From positions 1 to 10,938 of the IMG/VR virus record IMGVR_UViG_3300029212_000210: a stretch of 10,938 bases of DNA; one strand, given 5' to 3'. Below the pieces are notes generated by a model. The model was not told the DNA's origin. It was given only the letters and a program-made list of their open reading frames with translations, and did no database searches. Source of the stretch: a virus. Taxonomy: Duplodnaviria; Heunggongvirae; Uroviricota; Caudoviricetes. Shown one piece after another: positions 1 through 10,938 of this stretch. Made by a program: the position numbers and the translations under genes. Numbering within the stretch: position 1 is the stretch's first letter; each line of letters begins with the position of its first letter.

Positions 1-816
1 ACGGTCTATCTTGGGGCAGGTTTAACTGAGCAGGATATTAATTATTTCTGCTTTTACTGGGATGATGTGGTTATTCTAGATAGTGAAAATATTCACTCGA
101 TTGTGCCTAAAGAAAAAGAATTATTAGATAATGGGGTATTACGTAGACCTATTATGAAACATGATGGTATGCTGAATATCCAAGACTTTCCATTTTTATA
201 TACGGAATTTCAGTTGCAGACATTGGATGAATTCAGGAAGAACGAGCCTGCTACTTATTGGCACTTTCATCAAACAGGGGAAAATTTAATATATGATAAA
301 GAACAGAAAACGGCCCTTCAGTTGAGATTGGAGTTGTTTAATGTTCTGAGAATTCCTGATAAAGATGCTCATATAGAAGATATATTACGTTTTAAAGATG
401 ATTGTCAGGATGATCTTAATGCGTTACATGAGTACTTAGAAAAACTGTATACTGAAGTCCTTTATTCTAGAGACCCTAATCTAACGAGGGCTAAAAATTT
501 TTCTTTATTACAAGAGGCTGTAGTTAATCTTGATAAAGCTATCGAAGGGAAATGGAGAAATCCTATCAGAATGGGAGTCAAAGCCAATCCAGAAGTAGAT
601 GGTGGGCAGGTTATGGAATTTTTAAAACCGTTGTACCATGCTGCTATTGCTGGTTATTCAGGCGGTATTATTCCCGGTATGGTTACAGCCTTGGCAACCG
701 CAATTCCAAGTTTTATAAAATTCCAACCAGAATGGGTGGGCTTTAGAGATAAGGGGCCTAAAGAATTAGCTTATCTTACCAAAGCAACGCATAAGGGGTT
801 GATTAAGAGAGCTTAA
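1..816 (+). CDS. Hypothetical protein, 5'-partial. The frame is open from position 1 and the ORF track starts it at a GTG at 67. AT-rich cargo gene in the P2 tin/old hotspot, with a hydrophobic C-terminal segment.
   Basis: Seen: an uninterrupted frame-1 ORF from the window edge to the stop at 814-816. GC is about 35% against about 55-60% in the neighbouring structural genes (counted by eye on sample stretches). Hydrophobic stretch GYSGGIIPGMVTALATAIPSFIKF near the C-terminus. I recognise no named family. Confidence 0.6.
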   Translation, partial: TVYLGAGLTEQDINYFCFYWDDVVILDSENIHSIVPKEKELLDNGVLRRPIMKHDGMLNIQDFPFLYTEFQLQTLDEFRKNEPATYWHFHQTGENLIYDKEQKTALQLRLELFNVLRIPDKDAHIEDILRFKDDCQDDLNALHEYLEKLYTEVLYSRDPNLTRAKNFSLLQEAVVNLDKAIEGKWRNPIRMGVKANPEVDGGQVMEFLKPLYHAAIAGYSGGIIPGMVTALATAIPSFIKFQPEWVGFRDKGPKELAYLTKATHKGLIKRA

Positions 817-6779: not shown

Positions 6780-7313
6780 ATGAAGTTTGTTGCGCCAGAA
6801 CAGGCACCGGAACAGGCGGAAATCATCAGAAATACGCCGTTCTGGCCTGATGTGGACCTGTCGGAGTTTCGCAGTGTCATGCGCACTGACGGCACGGTGA
6901 CGCAGCCGCGTTTAAAGCAGGTTGCGCTGTCGGCAATTTCGGAGGTCAACGCAGAGCTGTATGAGTTTCGCAGACGCCAGCAGATGCTGGGGTATGCCTC
7001 GCTGGCAGAGATTCCGGCGGAACAGCTGGACGGCAAAAGTGAGCGCATTCAGCACTATTTCAACGCGGTTTACTGCTGGGCACGCGCCATGCTCAACGAA
7101 CGTTACCAGGACTATGACACCACGGCATCCGGTGTGAAGCGGGGCGAGGAACTGGCGGAAGCCAGCGGTGATTTATGGCGTGACGCCCGCTGGGCCATCA
7201 GCCGGGTACTCGAGGCCGGAGAATCAAGACAGCGTATTGCACTGATTTTTGATGTAGGCGTTTCTACCATTTATAGAAAATTTCCGGCAAATAAGATCAA
7301 TGAATCCCCCTGA
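6780..7313 (+). CDS. L: Head completion/stabilisation protein (P2 gpL family)
   Basis: The ORF track starts it at 6717, but an in-frame ATG at 6780 is preceded by AGGAGA and gives 177 aa, comparable to P2 gpL (169 aa). NTPFWPD.DL..FR and RRDARWAISR.L motifs match gpL. The C-terminal 25 aa are diverged. Confidence 0.82.
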   Translation: MKFVAPEQAPEQAEIIRNTPFWPDVDLSEFRSVMRTDGTVTQPRLKQVALSAISEVNAELYEFRRRQQMLGYASLAEIPAEQLDGKSERIQHYFNAVYCWARAMLNERYQDYDTTASGVKRGEELAEASGDLWRDARWAISRVLEAGESRQRIALIFDVGVSTIYRKFPANKINESP

Positions 7314-7361
7314 ATCAGCATTATGTTGATTATCCCTGCAAGCAGACAAATACCGTTATTT

Positions 7362-7379
7362 TGTGTGAATAACGACACA
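7362..7379 (+). promoter_or_regulatory. Candidate Ogr-dependent late promoter (F-promoter equivalent), TGT-N12-ACA dyad
   Basis: Seen: TGTgtgaataacgacACA, centred about 85 bp upstream of the FI-fragment start codon. Same reasoning as the O-promoter dyad. Confidence 0.5.
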
Positions 7380-7455
7380 ACTGCGCTTAGCTGTTTGTCA
7401 GGCACAATCACTTCAACATAGGGCGAAGCCTAATCCAATCAGGAGGTTCGCCACT

Positions 7456-7866
7456 ATGGCTCAGGATTACCACCACGGGGTGCGCGTTGTTGAAGTCAAC
7501 GAAGGCACCCGATCTATTACCACGGTGAGCACCGCCATCGTGGGTATGGTCTGCACGGGCGATGATGCCGATGCAAAAATGTTTCCTCTTAATAAACCCG
7601 TGCTGATCACTGATGTGCTGACTGCCAGCGGTAAAGCGGGTGAGTCCGGTACTCTGGCCCGTTCGCTGGATGCCATCGCTGACCAGGCAAAACCCGTGAC
7701 CATTGTTGTGCGTGTGCCGCAGGGTGAAACGGAAGACGAAACCACGACCAATATCATCGGCGCAGTGACTGCTGAAGGTAAAAAAACAGGTATGAAAGCC
7801 CTGTTAACCGAAGTGCTGGAATGGCGGTATAAAGCGATTCAGAGAAGCGGGGCCAACGATGAGTGA
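7456..7866 (+). pseudogene. FI: Tail sheath (P2 gpFI family) N-terminal fragment, about 122 codons, fused in frame to about 14 unrelated codons that end in an ATGA overlap with the next ORF
   Basis: Seen: 136-aa ORF with an AGGAGG ribosome-binding site. The first ~120 aa match my recollection of the P2 gpFI N-terminus (DYHHGV.V.E.NEGTR, TVSTAIVGMVCT, FPLNKPVLIT, IADQ.KPVT). Full-length FI is about 396 aa. Confidence 0.72.
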
Positions 7867-8959
7867 TAACAACCTGCGTCTGCAGGTCATTCTTAATGCG
7901 GTTGACAAGCTCACCCGCCCATTTCGATCTGCGCAGGCCAGTTCAAGAGAACTGGCTGCTGCTGTCAAAAAATCCCGCGATGCAATAAAGCAGCTTGATC
8001 AGGCCGGGAGCAGTCTGGACAGCTTCCGAAAGCTGCAGGCAGAAAATCAGAAATTAGGCGACAGGCTGAACTATGCCCGCCAGCGTGCAAATTTGCTCAG
8101 TCAGGAACTGGGAGCGATGGGGCCGCCTTCGCAACGTCAGGTTGTTGCTCTGGGCCGTCAACGGCTGGCTGTTCAGCGCCTGGAAGAACGCCAGAAAAAG
8201 CTGCAGCAGCAGACGGCGCTTGTGCGTGCTGAACTGTACCGGGCGGGAATTTCTGCGAAAGACGATGCGGGAGCAACTGCCCGTTTAGCCCGTGAAACAT
8301 CACGTTATAACCAGGAACTTTCGAAACAGGAGGCGCGGCTGAAGCGACTGGGGGAAGCTCAGCGCAGGATGAATGCAGCGCGTGCCAGTTATGCCCGTTC
8401 GCTGGAGGTGCGTGATCGTATTGCAGGTGCCGGAGCCACCACCACGGCTGCAGGGCTGGCAATGGGTGCGCCAGTGATGGCGGCAGTAAAAAGCTATACC
8501 AGCATGGAAGATGCCATGAAAGGTGTGGCAAAGCAGGTCAATGGTCTGCGTGACGATACCCGCGAACCCGCGAAGAAAGAAAGCACCACGGTGAAGCGTA
8601 AGCGCAGGACTAAGAAGCAGAAGAAAGAGCCGGAAGCGAAGCAGGGCGATTACCTGGTGGGTACGGATGAAAACGTGCTGGTACTTAATCGCACCTATGC
8701 CAACCGGAGCAACGCCGAACGGGCGGCAAAAATGCAGTGGGAACGCCTGCAACGCGGCGTTGCGTCATTCTCGCTACAACTGGCGGAAGGGCGGGCAGAT
8801 CTCTACACGGAAATGCCTGTGAAGGTCAGTGGTTTTAAACAGCCGATAGATGATGCGGAATGGACCATTACGACTCTGACACATACCGTCAGCCCGGATA
8901 ACGGTTTTACAACCAGTATTGAACTCGAAGTGAAGATTGATGATCTTGAAATGGAATAA
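7859..8959 (+). pseudogene. In-frame fusion of a tail tape-measure (gpT-like) N-terminal ~235 aa to the tail protein D (gpD-like) C-terminal ~130 aa
   Basis: Seen: 366-aa ORF. The N-terminal part is helical and coiled-coil-like with a Gly/Ala-rich hydrophobic segment, and sits where T should be. The C-terminal part (lysine-rich linker, then ERLQRGVA.FSLQLAEGRADLYTE.PVKVSGFK ... GFTTS.ELEV) matches the gpD C-terminus as I recall it, and sits directly upstream of ogr as D does in P2. Junction near 8560-8580. Confidence 0.62.
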
Positions 8960-8991
8960 AGTGTTCTCAATATTGATATTTTGTGTATCAT

Positions 8992-8997
8992 TACAAT
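8992..8997 (+). promoter_or_regulatory. Possible -10 hexamer (TACAAT) of the ogr promoter
   Basis: Seen: TACAAT about 30 nt upstream of the ogr start in an AT-rich spacer. No convincing -35 at 17 bp. Confidence 0.3.
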
Positions 8998-9027
8998 GAT
9001 TCTGATAGCAAAGGTAGGGATCTGGAT

Positions 9028-9246
9028 ATGATGAATTGTCCAAAGTGTGGTCATGCGGCACACACAAGGAGCAGTTTTCAAGTAACTGAAAGCACCAAAG
9101 AGCGTTACTGCCAGTGCCAAAATATTAACTGCGGGAGCACTTTTGTTACCCATGAAACAGTGGTCCGGTTTATTGTGACACCCGCACTGATTGCTACTGC
9201 TCCTCCACATCCATTGCCAGGTGGTCAGGGGCATATGAATTTTTGA
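9028..9246 (+). CDS. ogr: Late transcription activator Ogr (C4 zinc-finger)
   Basis: Seen: the ATG at 9028 (or 9031) is preceded by AGGTAGGGA and gives 72 aa with the CPKCGH...CQCQNINC zinc-finger pattern, equal in length to P2 Ogr. The ORF-track start at 8983 is a GTG further upstream and is not preferred. Confidence 0.9.
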   Translation: MMNCPKCGHAAHTRSSFQVTESTKERYCQCQNINCGSTFVTHETVVRFIVTPALIATAPPHPLPGGQGHMNF

Positions 9247-9253
9247 GAAAGAG

Positions 9254-9276
9254 AACCTGCTACGGCAGGTTTTTAT
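9254..9276. terminator. Bidirectional rho-independent terminator between convergent ogr and the BRCT-like ORF
   Basis: Seen: AACCTGC (9254-9260), loop TACG, GCAGGTT (9265-9271), then TTTTATT on the plus strand and CUCUUUCUC on the minus strand. It overlaps the minus-strand stop codon. Confidence 0.6.
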
Positions 9277-9755
9277 TCATCTGGGATCTCACCCGTTTCA
9301 AGAAAATGTATAAAGCCAGGCTCATCTATGATGATTGTGCCTTTCATCCTGGCTGCCGATACTTTTGATGGGCCTGCATTGTAACCGCAACAGAGCATCT
9401 GAAGGCTTTGGGTTACAGAGGTTCTTACCGTTAATCCTTGTTCATTCGCCTTATCAACCAATCTTTCTTTATCTGCTTTCTTAAATCCGGTGAAACACAC
9501 ATCGAATGTATTTTTTTTCGGACCAGACTGCTTAGTGAGATGTGAGTAGCTTTCGGGGAGGAATGACGCGCATTCCTGAATGGCTTGTTCTGGTGAATCG
9601 TACTGTTTAAGAATGCGGTCTTTTCGGAAGGTTTTTATTCGATCGGTGTTCTTACAAATGCCCTGTATATGATTTTCGCTATAACTGATGCTCTGTATAG
9701 AGTGAACACCGATACGACCATTTGCATTGATGTAAACAAAGTGAAGTTCTTCCAT
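9273..9755 (-). CDS. Hypothetical protein with a C-terminal BRCT-like domain and a small beta-rich N-terminal domain that is possibly WYL-like
   Basis: Seen: 160-aa ORF with an AGAGG ribosome-binding site 6 nt upstream of the ATG. GC is about 42%, lower than the prophage backbone. The C-terminal ~80 aa (FDVCFTGF..ADKERL..KA.EQGL.V..SV...L..L..G.N.G.SK...A...G..II.E..F..FL) fit the BRCT pattern seen in the LigA C-terminus. The N-terminal motif R.KTFRKDRI resembles the end of WYL domains. Domain calls are from pattern memory only. Confidence 0.65.
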   Translation of the reverse strand: MEELHFVYINANGRIGVHSIQSISYSENHIQGICKNTDRIKTFRKDRILKQYDSPEQAIQECASFLPESYSHLTKQSGPKKNTFDVCFTGFKKADKERLVDKANEQGLTVRTSVTQSLQMLCCGYNAGPSKVSAARMKGTIIIDEPGFIHFLETGEIPDE

Positions 9756-9781
9756 GTGAAACCTCTTTGCATGATTTCAAG

Positions 9782-9820
9782 ATGGCGACAGGCAAGATGG
9801 ACGCAAAAGTCTGTCGCCAT
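9782..9820. repeat. Perfect 10-bp inverted repeat ATGGCGACAG / CTGTCGCCAT separated by 19 bp, overlapping a CAAGATGG direct repeat
   Basis: Seen: arms at 9782-9791 and 9811-9820. CAAGATGG occurs at 9778-9785 and 9793-9800. Located between the BRCT-like ORF start and the ssrA terminator. Confidence 0.45.
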
Positions 9821-9835
9821 TTTGCCGCCACTACC

Positions 9836-9870
9836 AAAGAAAAAGGGGCTACGCTTTCACGTAACCCCTT
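9836..9870 (-). terminator. Rho-independent terminator of ssrA
   Basis: Seen (minus strand): AAGGGG-u-UACG, loop UGAAAG, CGUA-g-CCCC, followed by UUUUUCUUU, starting 9 nt after the tmRNA CCA end. Confidence 0.6.
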
Positions 9871-9878
9871 GATTTATT

Positions 9879-10241
9879 TGGTGGAGCTGGCGGGAGTTGA
9901 ACCCGCGTCCGAAATTCCTACATCCTCGGTACTACATGCTTAGTCAGTCTTTACATTCGCTTGCCAGCTGCGGACGGACACGCCACTAACAAACTAGCCT
10001 GATTAAGTTTTAACGCTTCAACCCCAGGCAGGGCTTCCACGCGATCTCTTTTGGGTTTGACCTCTCTTGATCCCCGTCCTAAGAGCGGAGGCTAGGGAGA
10101 GAGGGCTCTAAGCAGGTTATTAAGCTGCTAAAGCGTAGTTTTCGTCGTTTGCGACTATTTTTTGCGGCTTTTTACGAGGCCAACCGCCCCTCGGCATGCA
10201 CCTTGGGTTTCGCAAATCCCGTCGAATCCAGAATCAGCCCC
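9879..10241 (-). ncRNA. ssrA: tmRNA (SsrA), complete, 363 nt
   Basis: Seen: the reverse complement runs from GGGGCTGATTCTGGATTCGACGGG to GTTCAACTCCCGCCAGCTCCACCA and includes the tag-encoding stretch GCAAACGACGAAAACTACGCTTTAGCAGCTTAA (ANDENYALAA). It matches E. coli ssrA as I recall it. Confidence 0.97.
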
Positions 10242-10255
10242 AATGTGTAAAGGTA

Positions 10256-10261
10256 AGTATA
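10256..10261 (-). promoter_or_regulatory. Possible -10 hexamer (TATACT) of the ssrA promoter
   Basis: Seen: TATACT on the minus strand, 14 nt upstream of the mature tmRNA 5' end. Established: tmRNA is made as a precursor with a short 5' leader. No convincing -35. Confidence 0.3.
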
Positions 10262-10455
10262 CCAGATTTATGAGCGCCATGACCAGCCTCAATGGCGTTA
10301 TCGTTAAAGATTTAGCACCCATGTAGCCTGATTTTTATTCGATTAAGCAATGGGATGGCAACATTTGTGTCGGATGTGATAGCCAATAAGATGTTCATTC
10401 GCGCCGCCGGAGAGGGAGGCGCGGTGAGGAACTGGTCAATAATTGGAGTGCAGGT

Positions 10456-10938
10456 TTAACGGTGGGCGTTTTTCATGATACGCGCTTTATCCACCTGCCA
10501 TTCGCGCTCTTTGATATCTGAACGTTTATCGTGCTGTTTCTTACCTTTGGCGACGCCGATTTTCACTTTGCACCAGGCATTTTTCCAGTACAGGGAGAGC
10601 GCCACTACGGTATAGCCTTCTCGATTGACGCGACCGTACAATGAGTCCAGTTCGCGCTGGTTGAGAAGTAACTTGCGGGTACGGGTAGGATCGCACACCA
10701 CATGCGTGGAGGCCACTGCCATTGGCGTGATGTTTGCGCCAAACAGGAACGCTTCTCCGTCACGCAGAAGGACATAGCTGTCGCTGATATTGGCTTTTCC
10801 TGCGCGCAGGGATTTAACTTCCCAGCCTTGCAGGGCAAGTCCCGCTTCGAACTCTTCTTCGATAAAGTATTCGTGACGGGCGCGCTTGTTAAGCGCGATG
10901 GTCGCTGAACCAGGTTTATGTGCTTTTTTCTTCGTCAT
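10456..10938 (-). CDS. smpB: SsrA-binding protein SmpB, complete. The start codon is the last 3 nt of the window.
   Basis: 160-aa ORF that matches E. coli SmpB as I recall it, upstream of ssrA on the same strand, which is the conserved arrangement. Confidence 0.96.

What the first reader, a model, noticed from the sequence alone, without database searches (positions are those of the whole stretch)
7456..7866. Tail-sheath gene cut to its N-terminal third but still with a ribosome-binding site, promoter dyad and open frame
Seen: 136 codons, of which about 120 match the gpFI N-terminus, followed by about 14 codons (VLEWRYKAIQRSGANDE) that do not continue the sheath sequence and end in an ATGA overlap with the next ORF. 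Inference: a deletion from inside FI to the very end of the gene that normally precedes T (the E/E' chaperone), so the tail codons could be the E' C-terminus. An expressed sheath N-terminal peptide could interfere with tail assembly of a superinfecting P2-like phage.
Basis: partly seen in the sequence, partly recalled or inferred. Interest (0 to 1): 0.45.

Follow-up and report, generated by a model that had tools for sequence, protein, structure and literature searches.

The report
Sheath-gene stump in decaying prophage
This open frame is the first 117 codons of a phage tail-sheath gene joined in frame to the last 19 codons of the tail chaperone E', a leftover of deletions in a decaying P2/186-like prophage; it shows no sign of a selected function, but the break falls at a spot where many independent deletions start.

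Summary
ORF 7456-7866 is FI codons 1-117 (98% identical to an intact prophage at the same ssrA site) joined at 7806|7807 to the last 19 codons and stop of E', the -1 frame extension of tail chaperone E. A 1,778-bp deletion removed the rest of FI, FII and E. The late promoter dyad, ribosome-binding site and overlap with the T start codon are all inherited unchanged.

It is one of three deletions (8.6, 1.8 and 3.6 kb) that removed all lysis and tail functions from this prophage.

The proposed anti-phage decoy role has no support:
- The junction is absent from 5,426 complete E. coli genomes, from GTDB representative genomes and from IMG/VR. The exact protein was read on only 15 contigs.
- There is no defence-family hit.
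- The fragment is an incomplete domain.

Unexpectedly, the FI breakpoint recurs. At least 12 other alleles break within about 5 nt of the same site (GTTA|TC). They join it to different places in FI, FII, T, U and D, in and out of frame, mostly across a TA microhomology. One genome carries a deletion running the other way, ending 2 nt past it. Three other endpoints also recur.

The fusion is therefore best read as a by-product of a deletion hot spot. The cause of the hot spot is unknown.

The parts
7207..7313 (+). C-terminal 107 nt (HTH_7 region) of the DNA invertase gene, fused in frame to head-completion gene L (ORF 6780-7313). This is the right edge of the first deletion (8,620 bp).
   Evidence: Window 7207-7806 equals intact prophage 22056-22655 at 99.7%. 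Pfam GPL plus HTH_7 on the fused ORF.
7362..7379 (+). TGT-N12-ACA dyad (TGTGTGAATAACGACACA), the element of Ogr/Delta-dependent P2-type late promoters. This is the inherited PF promoter region.
   Evidence: Read directly. Window 7300-7806 is 99.6-100% identical to intact phages. No sigma-70 consensus promoter upstream of the ORF. The role of the dyad rests on established P2 knowledge and was not tested here.
7441..7446 (+). Ribosome-binding site AGGAGG, 9 nt upstream of the ATG.
   Evidence: Read directly. Identical in the intact phage.
7456..7806 (+). FI (tail sheath) codons 1-117: the N-terminal arm plus part of the N-terminal alpha/beta domain.
   Evidence: 98-99% identity to intact FI. PF22671. 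AF2 model with Foldseek top hits to pyocin R2 sheath 3J9Q/3J9R, covering about 22% of the target.
7806..7807 (+). Deletion junction GTTA|ACC with no microhomology. L004 and L008 carry GTT|GACC for the same pair of sites. The left side is a recurrent deletion endpoint.
7807..7866 (+). Last 19 codons plus stop of E', the -1 frame extension of tail assembly chaperone E, in frame with the FI stump.
   Evidence: 100% identical to intact prophage 24434-24493. PF06528 positions 20-37 of 37. Translation of the -1 frame downstream of the TTTTTTG site.
7859..8959 (+). Context: T (tape measure) codons 1-233 fused in frame to the C-terminal 134 codons of D. Junction at 8556-8558 with microhomology ATA. 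This is the third deletion (3,553 bp).
9028..9246 (+). Context: intact ogr-type late activator gene (72 aa).
   Evidence: PF04606 Ogr_Delta, profile positions 1-47 of 47. 72-aa gene called in L004 and L133.
9879..10241 (-). Context: ssrA (tmRNA), the attachment site. The prophage supplies the 3' end of the gene.
   Evidence: ARAGORN. Comparison with L006.

Best explanation
The ORF is a chimeric pseudogene product. In an E. coli P2/186-like prophage integrated at ssrA, a 1,778-bp deletion joined FI codon 117 to codon 21 of the E' frame. That removed the sheath core, the tube gene FII and the chaperone E.

The join happens to be in frame with E'. The stump therefore runs to the native E' stop and keeps the native overlap with the T start. 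It also keeps FI's own Ogr-dependent late promoter and ribosome-binding site. It would probably be transcribed and translated only when a late activator is present: the element's own Ogr, or Ogr/Delta from a superinfecting P2-like phage or P4-like satellite. This step is inferred.

The product is an incomplete sheath N-terminal piece with no assigned role.

The position of the break is not random. FI nucleotides 349-356 (CTGTTA|TC) are a recurrent deletion endpoint in this phage group. So the fusion is one outcome of a mutational hot spot during prophage decay, not a gene shaped by selection. The molecular cause of the hot spot is not known.
For: Exact map onto an intact prophage at the same ssrA site:
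- Window 7207-7806 equals 22056-22655.
- Window 7807-8558 equals 24434-25185.
- Window 8556-10938 equals 28739-31121.
- Three deletions of 8,620, 1,778 and 3,553 bp removed the lysis genes, tail completion, baseplate and fibre genes, sheath core, tube, E, most of T, U and the N-terminus of D (annotation).

Identity of the parts:
- The tail is the E' C-terminus, in frame.
- All 482 phage records that match the protein match only residues 1-117/118.

Rarity:
- 0 of 5,426 complete E. coli genomes carry the junction, although 973 of them carry this FI region.
- 0 hits in GTDB representative genomes and 0 in IMG/VR.
- The exact protein was read on 15 contigs; the T::D and L::invertase fusions are on 5 contigs each.

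Hot spot:
- At least 12 other alleles break at FI codon 117/118. Their right-hand partners lie in FI (2), FII, T (2), U and D (5). With the window's own allele, 5 are in frame and 7 out of frame.
- Of the 12 partner sites whose sequence could be placed, 10 have TA immediately 5' of the join and 2 have TG.
- Strain SF10 carries a leftward deletion of about 20 kb whose FI side begins 2 nt past the same site.

Other decayed P2-like prophages with several internal deletions are seen in complete genomes F719, F829 and SF10.
Against: - No expression or stability data exist, so a function cannot be excluded.
- The identical 136-aa protein sits on at least four flanking haplotypes and at two chromosomal sites (ssrA and next to ybjL). 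That means some persistence or spread, or repeated formation.
- All three fusions in this element are in frame (chance about 1 in 27).
- The list of breakpoints came from a search seeded with this protein, which returned only proteins of up to 238 aa. Left ends outside FI and long in-frame fusions were not sampled. The in-frame fraction and the apparent uniqueness of the FI site are therefore biased.
Confidence: 0.8

Rival explanations
1. Decoy or dominant-negative immunity. When a superinfecting P2-like phage or a P4-like satellite supplies Ogr/Delta, the stump is made. Its N-terminal arm occupies the 'handshake' beta-sheet site of sheath subunits, caps polymerisation and lowers the burst of the invader.
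For: - The late promoter dyad, ribosome-binding site and N-terminal arm are retained.
- The FI N-terminal stump is kept in many alleles.
- An intact ogr gene lies in cis.
Against: - Rare allele: 0 of 5,426 complete genomes.
- No PADLOC hit and no precedent found in the literature.
- The fragment holds only part of the N-terminal alpha/beta domain and none of the conserved C-terminal domain.
- The breakpoint is fixed to the nucleotide and shows TA microhomology, with out-of-frame tails and a reciprocal leftward deletion. This is the signature of a DNA-level hot spot, not of selection on a protein boundary.
Confidence: 0.06
2. Adaptive trimming into a helper-dependent element. The three deletions turned the prophage into a head-proficient element without tails or lysis genes. 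It can still excise, and it relies on an intact P2-like helper for tails and lysis, in the manner of capsid-forming PICIs. The stump is a neutral scar of that trimming.
For: - Q, P, O, N and M have the same lengths as in intact prophages.
- ogr is intact.
- All three scars are in frame.
- Contig L006 joins ogr-BRCT-(ssrA 3' core) directly to a 352-aa ORF, integrase and repressor. This is an attP-like or tandem arrangement for an element that carries the FI::E' and T::D scars.
Against: - L lost its last 11 codons and gained 34 foreign ones.
- The triple-deleted element was seen on only about 5 contigs.
- The L006 arrangement is equally explained by tandem prophages.
- The left half of the element was not recovered here.
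- Similar multi-deletion remnants with broken head genes exist, for example F829.
Confidence: 0.07
3. Assembly artefact or chimeric contig.
For: The window comes from a metagenome contig: it is identical in sequence and coordinates to L002.
Against: - The same junction occurs in contigs from ENA, JGI, Logan and an NCBI isolate assembly, on different flanking haplotypes.
- Related junctions are present in complete genomes.
- The join has 0-1 nt of homology, which assemblers do not bridge.
Confidence: 0.01

Closest known systems
gpFI tail sheath of P2/186-like phages (Peduoviridae) and R2 pyocin sheath PA0622 (PDB 3J9Q)
   Same: Residues 1-117 are 98-99% identical to FI of Wadgaonvirus-type prophages and about 64% identical to P2-group FI. 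Intact FI aligns with PA0622 over residues 5-383. The stump has the same promoter, ribosome-binding site and N-terminal arm.
   Different: It lacks residues 118-390: the rest of the N-terminal domain and the whole conserved C-terminal domain that builds the sheath lattice. It cannot be a sheath subunit.
gpE+E' tail assembly chaperone of P2 (made by -1 frameshifting; Pfam PF06528)
   Same: The last 19 residues and the overlap with the T start are identical to E' of the intact prophage. NCBI names the exact protein 'GpE family phage tail protein'.
   Different: There is no E body, no slippery site and no first 20 residues of the E' ORF. The E' tail is read by direct translation from FI. The database name is a misnomer for a chimera.
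Defective ('grounded') P2-like prophage remnants in Enterobacteria
   Same: Several internal deletions, loss of lysis and tail genes, and retention of ogr and part of D next to the attachment site. Comparable remnants were seen here in F719, F829 and SF10.
   Different: The breakpoints are not scattered. The FI-117 endpoint, and at least three others, recur with different partners. I did not find this described in the papers searched.
Deletion hot spots at arrested replication forks or site-specific breaks (Ter/Tus-dependent deletion hot spot; quasi-site recombination by Cin/Gin invertases). Recalled from the literature, not read here.
   Same: One fixed endpoint, variable partners, and 0-4 nt of microhomology centred on one dinucleotide.
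   Different: There is no Ter-like sequence. The true invertase sites of this prophage are TTCTCACATACC-TT-GGTTTGGGAGAA and TTCTCCCAAACC-AA-CGTTTAAGAAAA. They have a different centre (AA/TT, not TA) and no likeness to the FI site.

Membership tests
Tail sheath protein (gpFI / gp18 family) | N-terminal region (Pfam PF22671, Gp18_domIII_N) | tested here: met
   PF22671 at residues 27-87, E = 1.1e-11.
Tail sheath protein (gpFI / gp18 family) | Central sheath domain (PF04984) and conserved C-terminal domain; full length about 390 aa | tested here: not met
   Only PF22671 and PF06528 hit. FI homology ends at residue 117/118 in all 482 phage records. The model covers about 22% of pyocin sheath 3J9Q.
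GpE / E+E' tail assembly chaperone (PF06528) | Complete E' segment reached by -1 frameshift from E at a TTTTTTG site | tested here: not met
   Only profile positions 20-37 of 37 are present. The E gene and the slippery site of the intact phage (L001 4314-4320) lie inside the deleted 1,778 bp.
Ogr/Delta-dependent P2 late promoter (PF) | TGT-N12-ACA dyad upstream of a weak -10, with no -35 | tested here: met
   Dyad at 7362-7379. No sigma-70 consensus promoter found upstream. Sequence 99.6-100% identical to intact phages.
Ogr/Delta-dependent P2 late promoter (PF) | Activation by Ogr/Delta in vivo | not testable with these tools
   Needs a reporter or RNA-seq. An intact ogr is present at 9028-9246.
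Known anti-phage defence proteins (PADLOC-DB) | Match to a defence-system profile | tested here: not met
   0 families at E <= 0.01.
   Short relatives are FI stumps with unrelated tails, frameshifts or contig-end partials. The E' tail is shared only by near-identical copies.
Hin/Gin/Cin invertase-mediated deletion | Crossover at the centre of a 26-bp site or quasi-site that shares the central dinucleotide of the true sites | tested here: not met
   The true sites have AA/TT centres. The FI site shares 2 of 12 half-site positions, and the join is at TA, 5 nt from the best quasi-site centre.

The most novel reading that the evidence does not exclude
The sheath stump marks a site-specific weak point in the DNA of P2/186-like prophages. 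FI nucleotides 349-356 (CTGTTA|TC) are repeatedly broken or used for strand switching, and are joined to other sites across a TA dinucleotide. At least three further positions behave the same way: invertase 22056, FI 23324 and E' 24433 in intact-prophage coordinates.

This would imply an unrecognised sequence- or structure-directed process that drives the decay of these prophages along preferred paths. Candidates are a nuclease or nickase, a topoisomerase cleavage site, replication arrest or a recombinase. N-terminal sheath peptides expressed from PF would then be produced again and again as a by-product.
Probability: 0.4. Interest if true: 0.55.

Novelty: already known. Interest (0 to 1): 0.3.

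Why it matters
The ORF itself is an ordinary scar of prophage decay, and the exact protein is already in NCBI under a misleading name (EFO0084675.1). It should not be carried forward as a candidate defence gene without an experiment.

What may matter is the side result: deletion endpoints in this phage group are not scattered. One FI position is shared by 13 different deletions with right-hand partners from 0.6 to 6.4 kb away, plus one leftward deletion. Three other endpoints recur, including a triangle of three sites joined in all three pairwise combinations.

If a systematic survey confirms this, it would show that prophage domestication follows preferred molecular paths. It would also give a tractable assay, a PCR across FI-D in lysogens, for finding the enzyme or DNA structure responsible.

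Tried and rejected
- **Invertase as the cause of the hot spot: rejected.** The true crossover sites were located at intact-prophage positions 19684 and 21515. They have AA/TT centres and no likeness to the FI site.
- **Pseudo-origin for the replication nickase gpA: not supported.** No sequence resembling the FI site was found elsewhere in the prophage sequence held (L010, L003, L002).
- **CRISPR self-targeting: no support.** No spacer-length matches to the FI site region appeared among complete E. coli genomes. Only full-length prophage hits and a few truncated prophage copies were found.
- **DNA hairpin: unconvincing.** A 6-bp stem (AACAGG-N9-CCTGTT) ends at the site, but folding is no better than shuffled sequence (z = -0.4 to -1.5).
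- **Gyrase site: cannot be scored here.** The published motif is a 130-bp degenerate pattern, and quinolone cleavage prefers a position before G (PMC6379681). TTA|TCTG does not fit that preference.
- **Shared recognition sequence: none found.** There is no common 5-mer or longer within 30 nt either side of the four recurrent sites.
- **Hot spot in diverged FI genes: not reliable.**
  - P0052 is a frameshift, not a deletion.
  - P0079 could not be placed without an intact reference.
  - P0027 breaks 5 nt away in a different local sequence, next to an inverted tail-gene block.
- **Left half of the element not recovered.** The portal look-up returned only intact relatives.
- **P2 tail structure preprint** found could not be opened.

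Full report
**What the window is.** The 10,938 bases are the right part of a P2/186-like (Peduoviridae) prophage integrated at the 3' end of ssrA in E. coli.
- The tmRNA gene lies at 9879-10241 (-) and smpB at 10456-10938 (-).
- From left to right the window holds a DUF6236 gene, the cos region, portal Q and terminase P (both on the - strand), scaffold O, capsid N, small terminase M and head completion L. Then come three scars, then ogr and a BRCT-domain gene.
- The window is identical, coordinate for coordinate, to a human gut metagenome contig (L002) and to L003 and L005.

**Check of the observation.**
- ORF 7456-7866 has 136 codons.
- Residues 1-117/118 are 98.3% identical to the 390-aa sheath protein of an intact prophage at the same ssrA site. 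That prophage is deposited as 'Escherichia phage 500465-1', NC_049342.
- They are 99.2% identical to FI of Klebsiella phage KP12 and about 63-65% identical to P2-group FI.
- Pfam finds PF22671 at residues 27-87 and, for the tail, PF06528 (Phage_P2_GpE) profile positions 20-37 of 37.
- AGGAGG lies 9 nt before the ATG. A TGT-N12-ACA dyad lies at 7362-7379.
- Window 7300-7806 is 99.6-100% identical to intact phages, so these signals are simply inherited.
- Three details need correcting. The FI part is 117 codons. The tail is 19 codons (TEVLEWRYKAIQRSGANDE). The overlap with the next ORF is ATGAGTGA, which is the native E'/T overlap.

**Placing the junction.**
- Window 7207-7806 matches the intact prophage at 22056-22655. 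Window 7807-8558 matches 24434-25185 at 100%.
- The deleted stretch, 22656-24433 (1,778 bp), holds FI codons 118-390, FII (tube), E and the first 20 codons of the separately annotated 39-codon E' ORF.
- In the intact phage a TTTTTTG site near the end of E leads in the -1 frame to ...MPLTEVLEWRYKAIQRSGANDE*, which ends 8 nt into T.
- The join GTTA|ACC has no microhomology.

**Context: three deletions.** The full map shows two more scars.
- L codon 143 is joined to the last 107 nt of the DNA invertase gene. This deletion is 8,620 bp with microhomology TAC. It removes X, the lysis genes, R, S, V, W, J, I, H, G and the invertible segment.
- T codon 233 is joined to the last 134 codons of D. This deletion is 3,553 bp with microhomology ATA. 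It removes most of T, U and the D N-terminus.
- All three fusions are in frame. Every tail and lysis function is gone. Q, P, O, N, M and ogr have normal lengths.

**How common it is.**
- No complete E. coli genome (0 of 5,426) contains the FI::E' junction, although 973 carry this FI region.
- No GTDB representative genome and no IMG/VR contig has it.
- The exact protein was read on 15 contigs in the large assembly collection. It is NCBI EFO0084675.1, named 'GpE family phage tail protein'.
- The T::D and L::invertase fusion proteins are each on 5 contigs.
- The FI::E' scar also occurs without the other two scars. In an isolate assembly (L004) and a Logan contig (L008), the invertase is intact. 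L004 also has intact T, U, D and ogr, in a prophage next to ybjL.
- In L004 and L008 the junction reads GTT|GACC instead of GTTA|ACC.
- The window and L004 differ at 5 of 1,352 positions, and one of the five is exactly the junction base. This fits two separate joins of the same two sites, or a mismatch at the join that segregated. A chance point mutation is less likely.

**The unexpected part: the FI breakpoint recurs.** A homologue search returned many short FI-derived proteins. I aligned them to intact FI and to the intact prophage DNA. I also read the DNA of several loci. At least 12 further alleles of near-identical FI genes break at codon 117/118 and continue in different places:

| Partner | Allele | Frame |
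|---|---|---|
| FI nt ~925 | P0003 | out of frame |
| FI codon 341 | P0016 | in frame |
| FII | P0007 | out of frame |
| T codon 331 | complete genome F719 | out of frame |
| T codon ~595 | P0013 / L134 | out of frame |
| U | P0021 | in frame |
| D | P0015 | out of frame |
| D | P0004 / L135 | out of frame |
| D | P0014 | out of frame |
| D, last 60 aa | P0009 | in frame |
| D, last 36 aa | P0002 group / L133 | in frame |

- Of the 12 partner sites whose sequence could be placed, 10 have TA immediately 5' of the join, matching FI's GT[TA]. The other 2 have TG.
- G at position -4 is shared by most of them, and several joins form GTTAAC.
- Among close relatives, other FI endpoints (codons 110, 114, 115, 121, 129, 131, 138, 140, 153, 165) occur once or twice each.
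- Complete genome SF10 has a leftward deletion of about 20 kb, from CII into FI, whose FI side begins 2 nt past the same site.
- Other endpoints recur too:
  - Invertase position 22056 is used by the window (from L) and by L133 (from gene I).
  - E' position 24430-24434 is used by the window/L004 and by complete genome F829 (from FI 23324).
  - FI 23324 is also the right end in P0016.
  - So FI-117, FI-340 and E' are joined in all three pairwise combinations.
- Caveat: the list was seeded with this protein and held only proteins up to 238 aa. Left ends outside FI and long in-frame fusions were not sampled. The recurrence within the sampled range is still far beyond a uniform expectation.

**What could cause the hot spot.** I could not identify it.
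- The prophage's own invertase is unlikely. Its true sites have AA/TT centres and do not resemble the FI site.
- No similar sequence exists elsewhere in the prophage.
- No spacer-like matches were seen.
- A small hairpin ends at the site, but its folding is not significant.
- No common 5-mer or longer surrounds the recurrent sites.
- A fixed DNA end joined through 2-4 nt of terminal homology fits several processes: a site-specific nick or break, fork arrest, or a topoisomerase cleavage site. None was testable here (for gyrase).

**Does the stump do anything?**
- The AF2 model has a disordered arm (residues 1-24), a confident partial alpha/beta piece (27-117) and a helix running through the junction (112-133).
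- Its best structural matches are the R2 pyocin sheath, of which it covers about 22%. Intact FI aligns with that sheath over residues 5-383.
[quoted passage not shown] A free N-terminal arm could therefore, in principle, compete for that site.
- Against a selected role: the allele is rare, it has no PADLOC hit, no precedent was found in the literature, the domain is incomplete, and the same stump occurs with many unrelated tails.
- In-frame joins number 5 of 12 at this site, close to the one third expected, although that count is biased as noted above.

**Verdict.** The observation and the deletion inference are correct. The ORF is a decay scar, FI(1-117)::E'(21-39), which probably remains activator-inducible. 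The decoy idea is possible in principle but unsupported (about 6%). A helper-dependent 'tail-less' lifestyle for the whole element is a second long shot (about 7%). It is suggested only by intact head genes, the in-frame scars and one attP-like contig (L006). The finding itself is ordinary. The recurrent breakpoints are the part worth a systematic follow-up.

Noticed in passing
window 7207-7209 and 7807; intact prophage L010 22056, 23324, 24430-24434: Deletion endpoints other than FI-117 also recur with different partners. The invertase C-terminus (22056) is used by this window and by L133. The E' site is used by this window/L004 and by complete genome F829. FI 23324 is used as a right end (P0016) and as a left end (F829). 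FI-117, FI-340 and E' are joined in all three pairwise combinations.
   Followed up: partly
L006 2757-5418 (compare window 9756-9924): A JGI metagenome contig carrying the FI::E' and T::D scars continues from the BRCT gene through the 45-nt ssrA 3' core straight into a 352-aa ORF, an integrase and a repressor. This is an attP-like or tandem-prophage junction. It hints that the deleted element may still excise, or may sit in tandem.
   Followed up: partly
window 7806 versus L004 1115 and L008: The same FI::E' join exists as GTTA|ACC and as GTT|GACC. The junction base is one of only 5 differences in 1,352 nt between the window and L004. This suggests two independent joins, or a mismatched crossover that segregated.
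   Followed up: partly
window 6780-7313: Head-completion protein L has lost its last 11 codons and gained the 34-residue helix-turn-helix end of the DNA invertase, in frame (GPL plus HTH_7 in one ORF).
   Followed up: partly
window 67-816 (complete gene in L003 2489-3361): A 290-aa DUF6236 protein sits between DinI and cos/Q, the position of the old/tin cargo hot spot of P2-like phages. It has no PADLOC hit and its function is unknown. The same gene is present in many intact relatives.
   Followed up: partly
window 9273-9755 (-): A 160-aa protein next to the attachment site has a weak BRCT hit (E = 0.0011, below the Pfam cut-off) and a weak match to PADLOC candidate PDC-S48 (E = 1.8e-7). RefSeq calls it 'DNA ligase' in the intact prophage.
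   Followed up: no
window 7778-7784 (GGTAAAAAAACAGG; FI codons 108-110): The A7 run just upstream of the breakpoint is a frameshift site in several database FI fragments (P0023, P0028, P0032, P0034, P0055). These are either real slippage mutations or sequencing errors.
   Followed up: no
L010 (NC_049342.1), whole record: The RefSeq 'phage 500465-1 complete genome' is a predicted prophage region. It includes about 8 kb of host genes (smpB to ffh) and an IS-disrupted replication gene A, so it is not a phage genome as such.
   Followed up: no
L145 4001-5016: In an isolate assembly, a diverged FI breaks 5 nt from the same position and is followed by an inverted block (invertase, G, H, I, J on the other strand). 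This is an inversion or a head-to-head pair of P2-like tail modules.
   Followed up: partly
NCBI EFO0084675.1 (the exact protein of window 7456-7863): The chimera is annotated 'GpE family phage tail protein' because of its 19-residue tail, although 86% of it is sheath. This is a database misnomer.
   Followed up: yes
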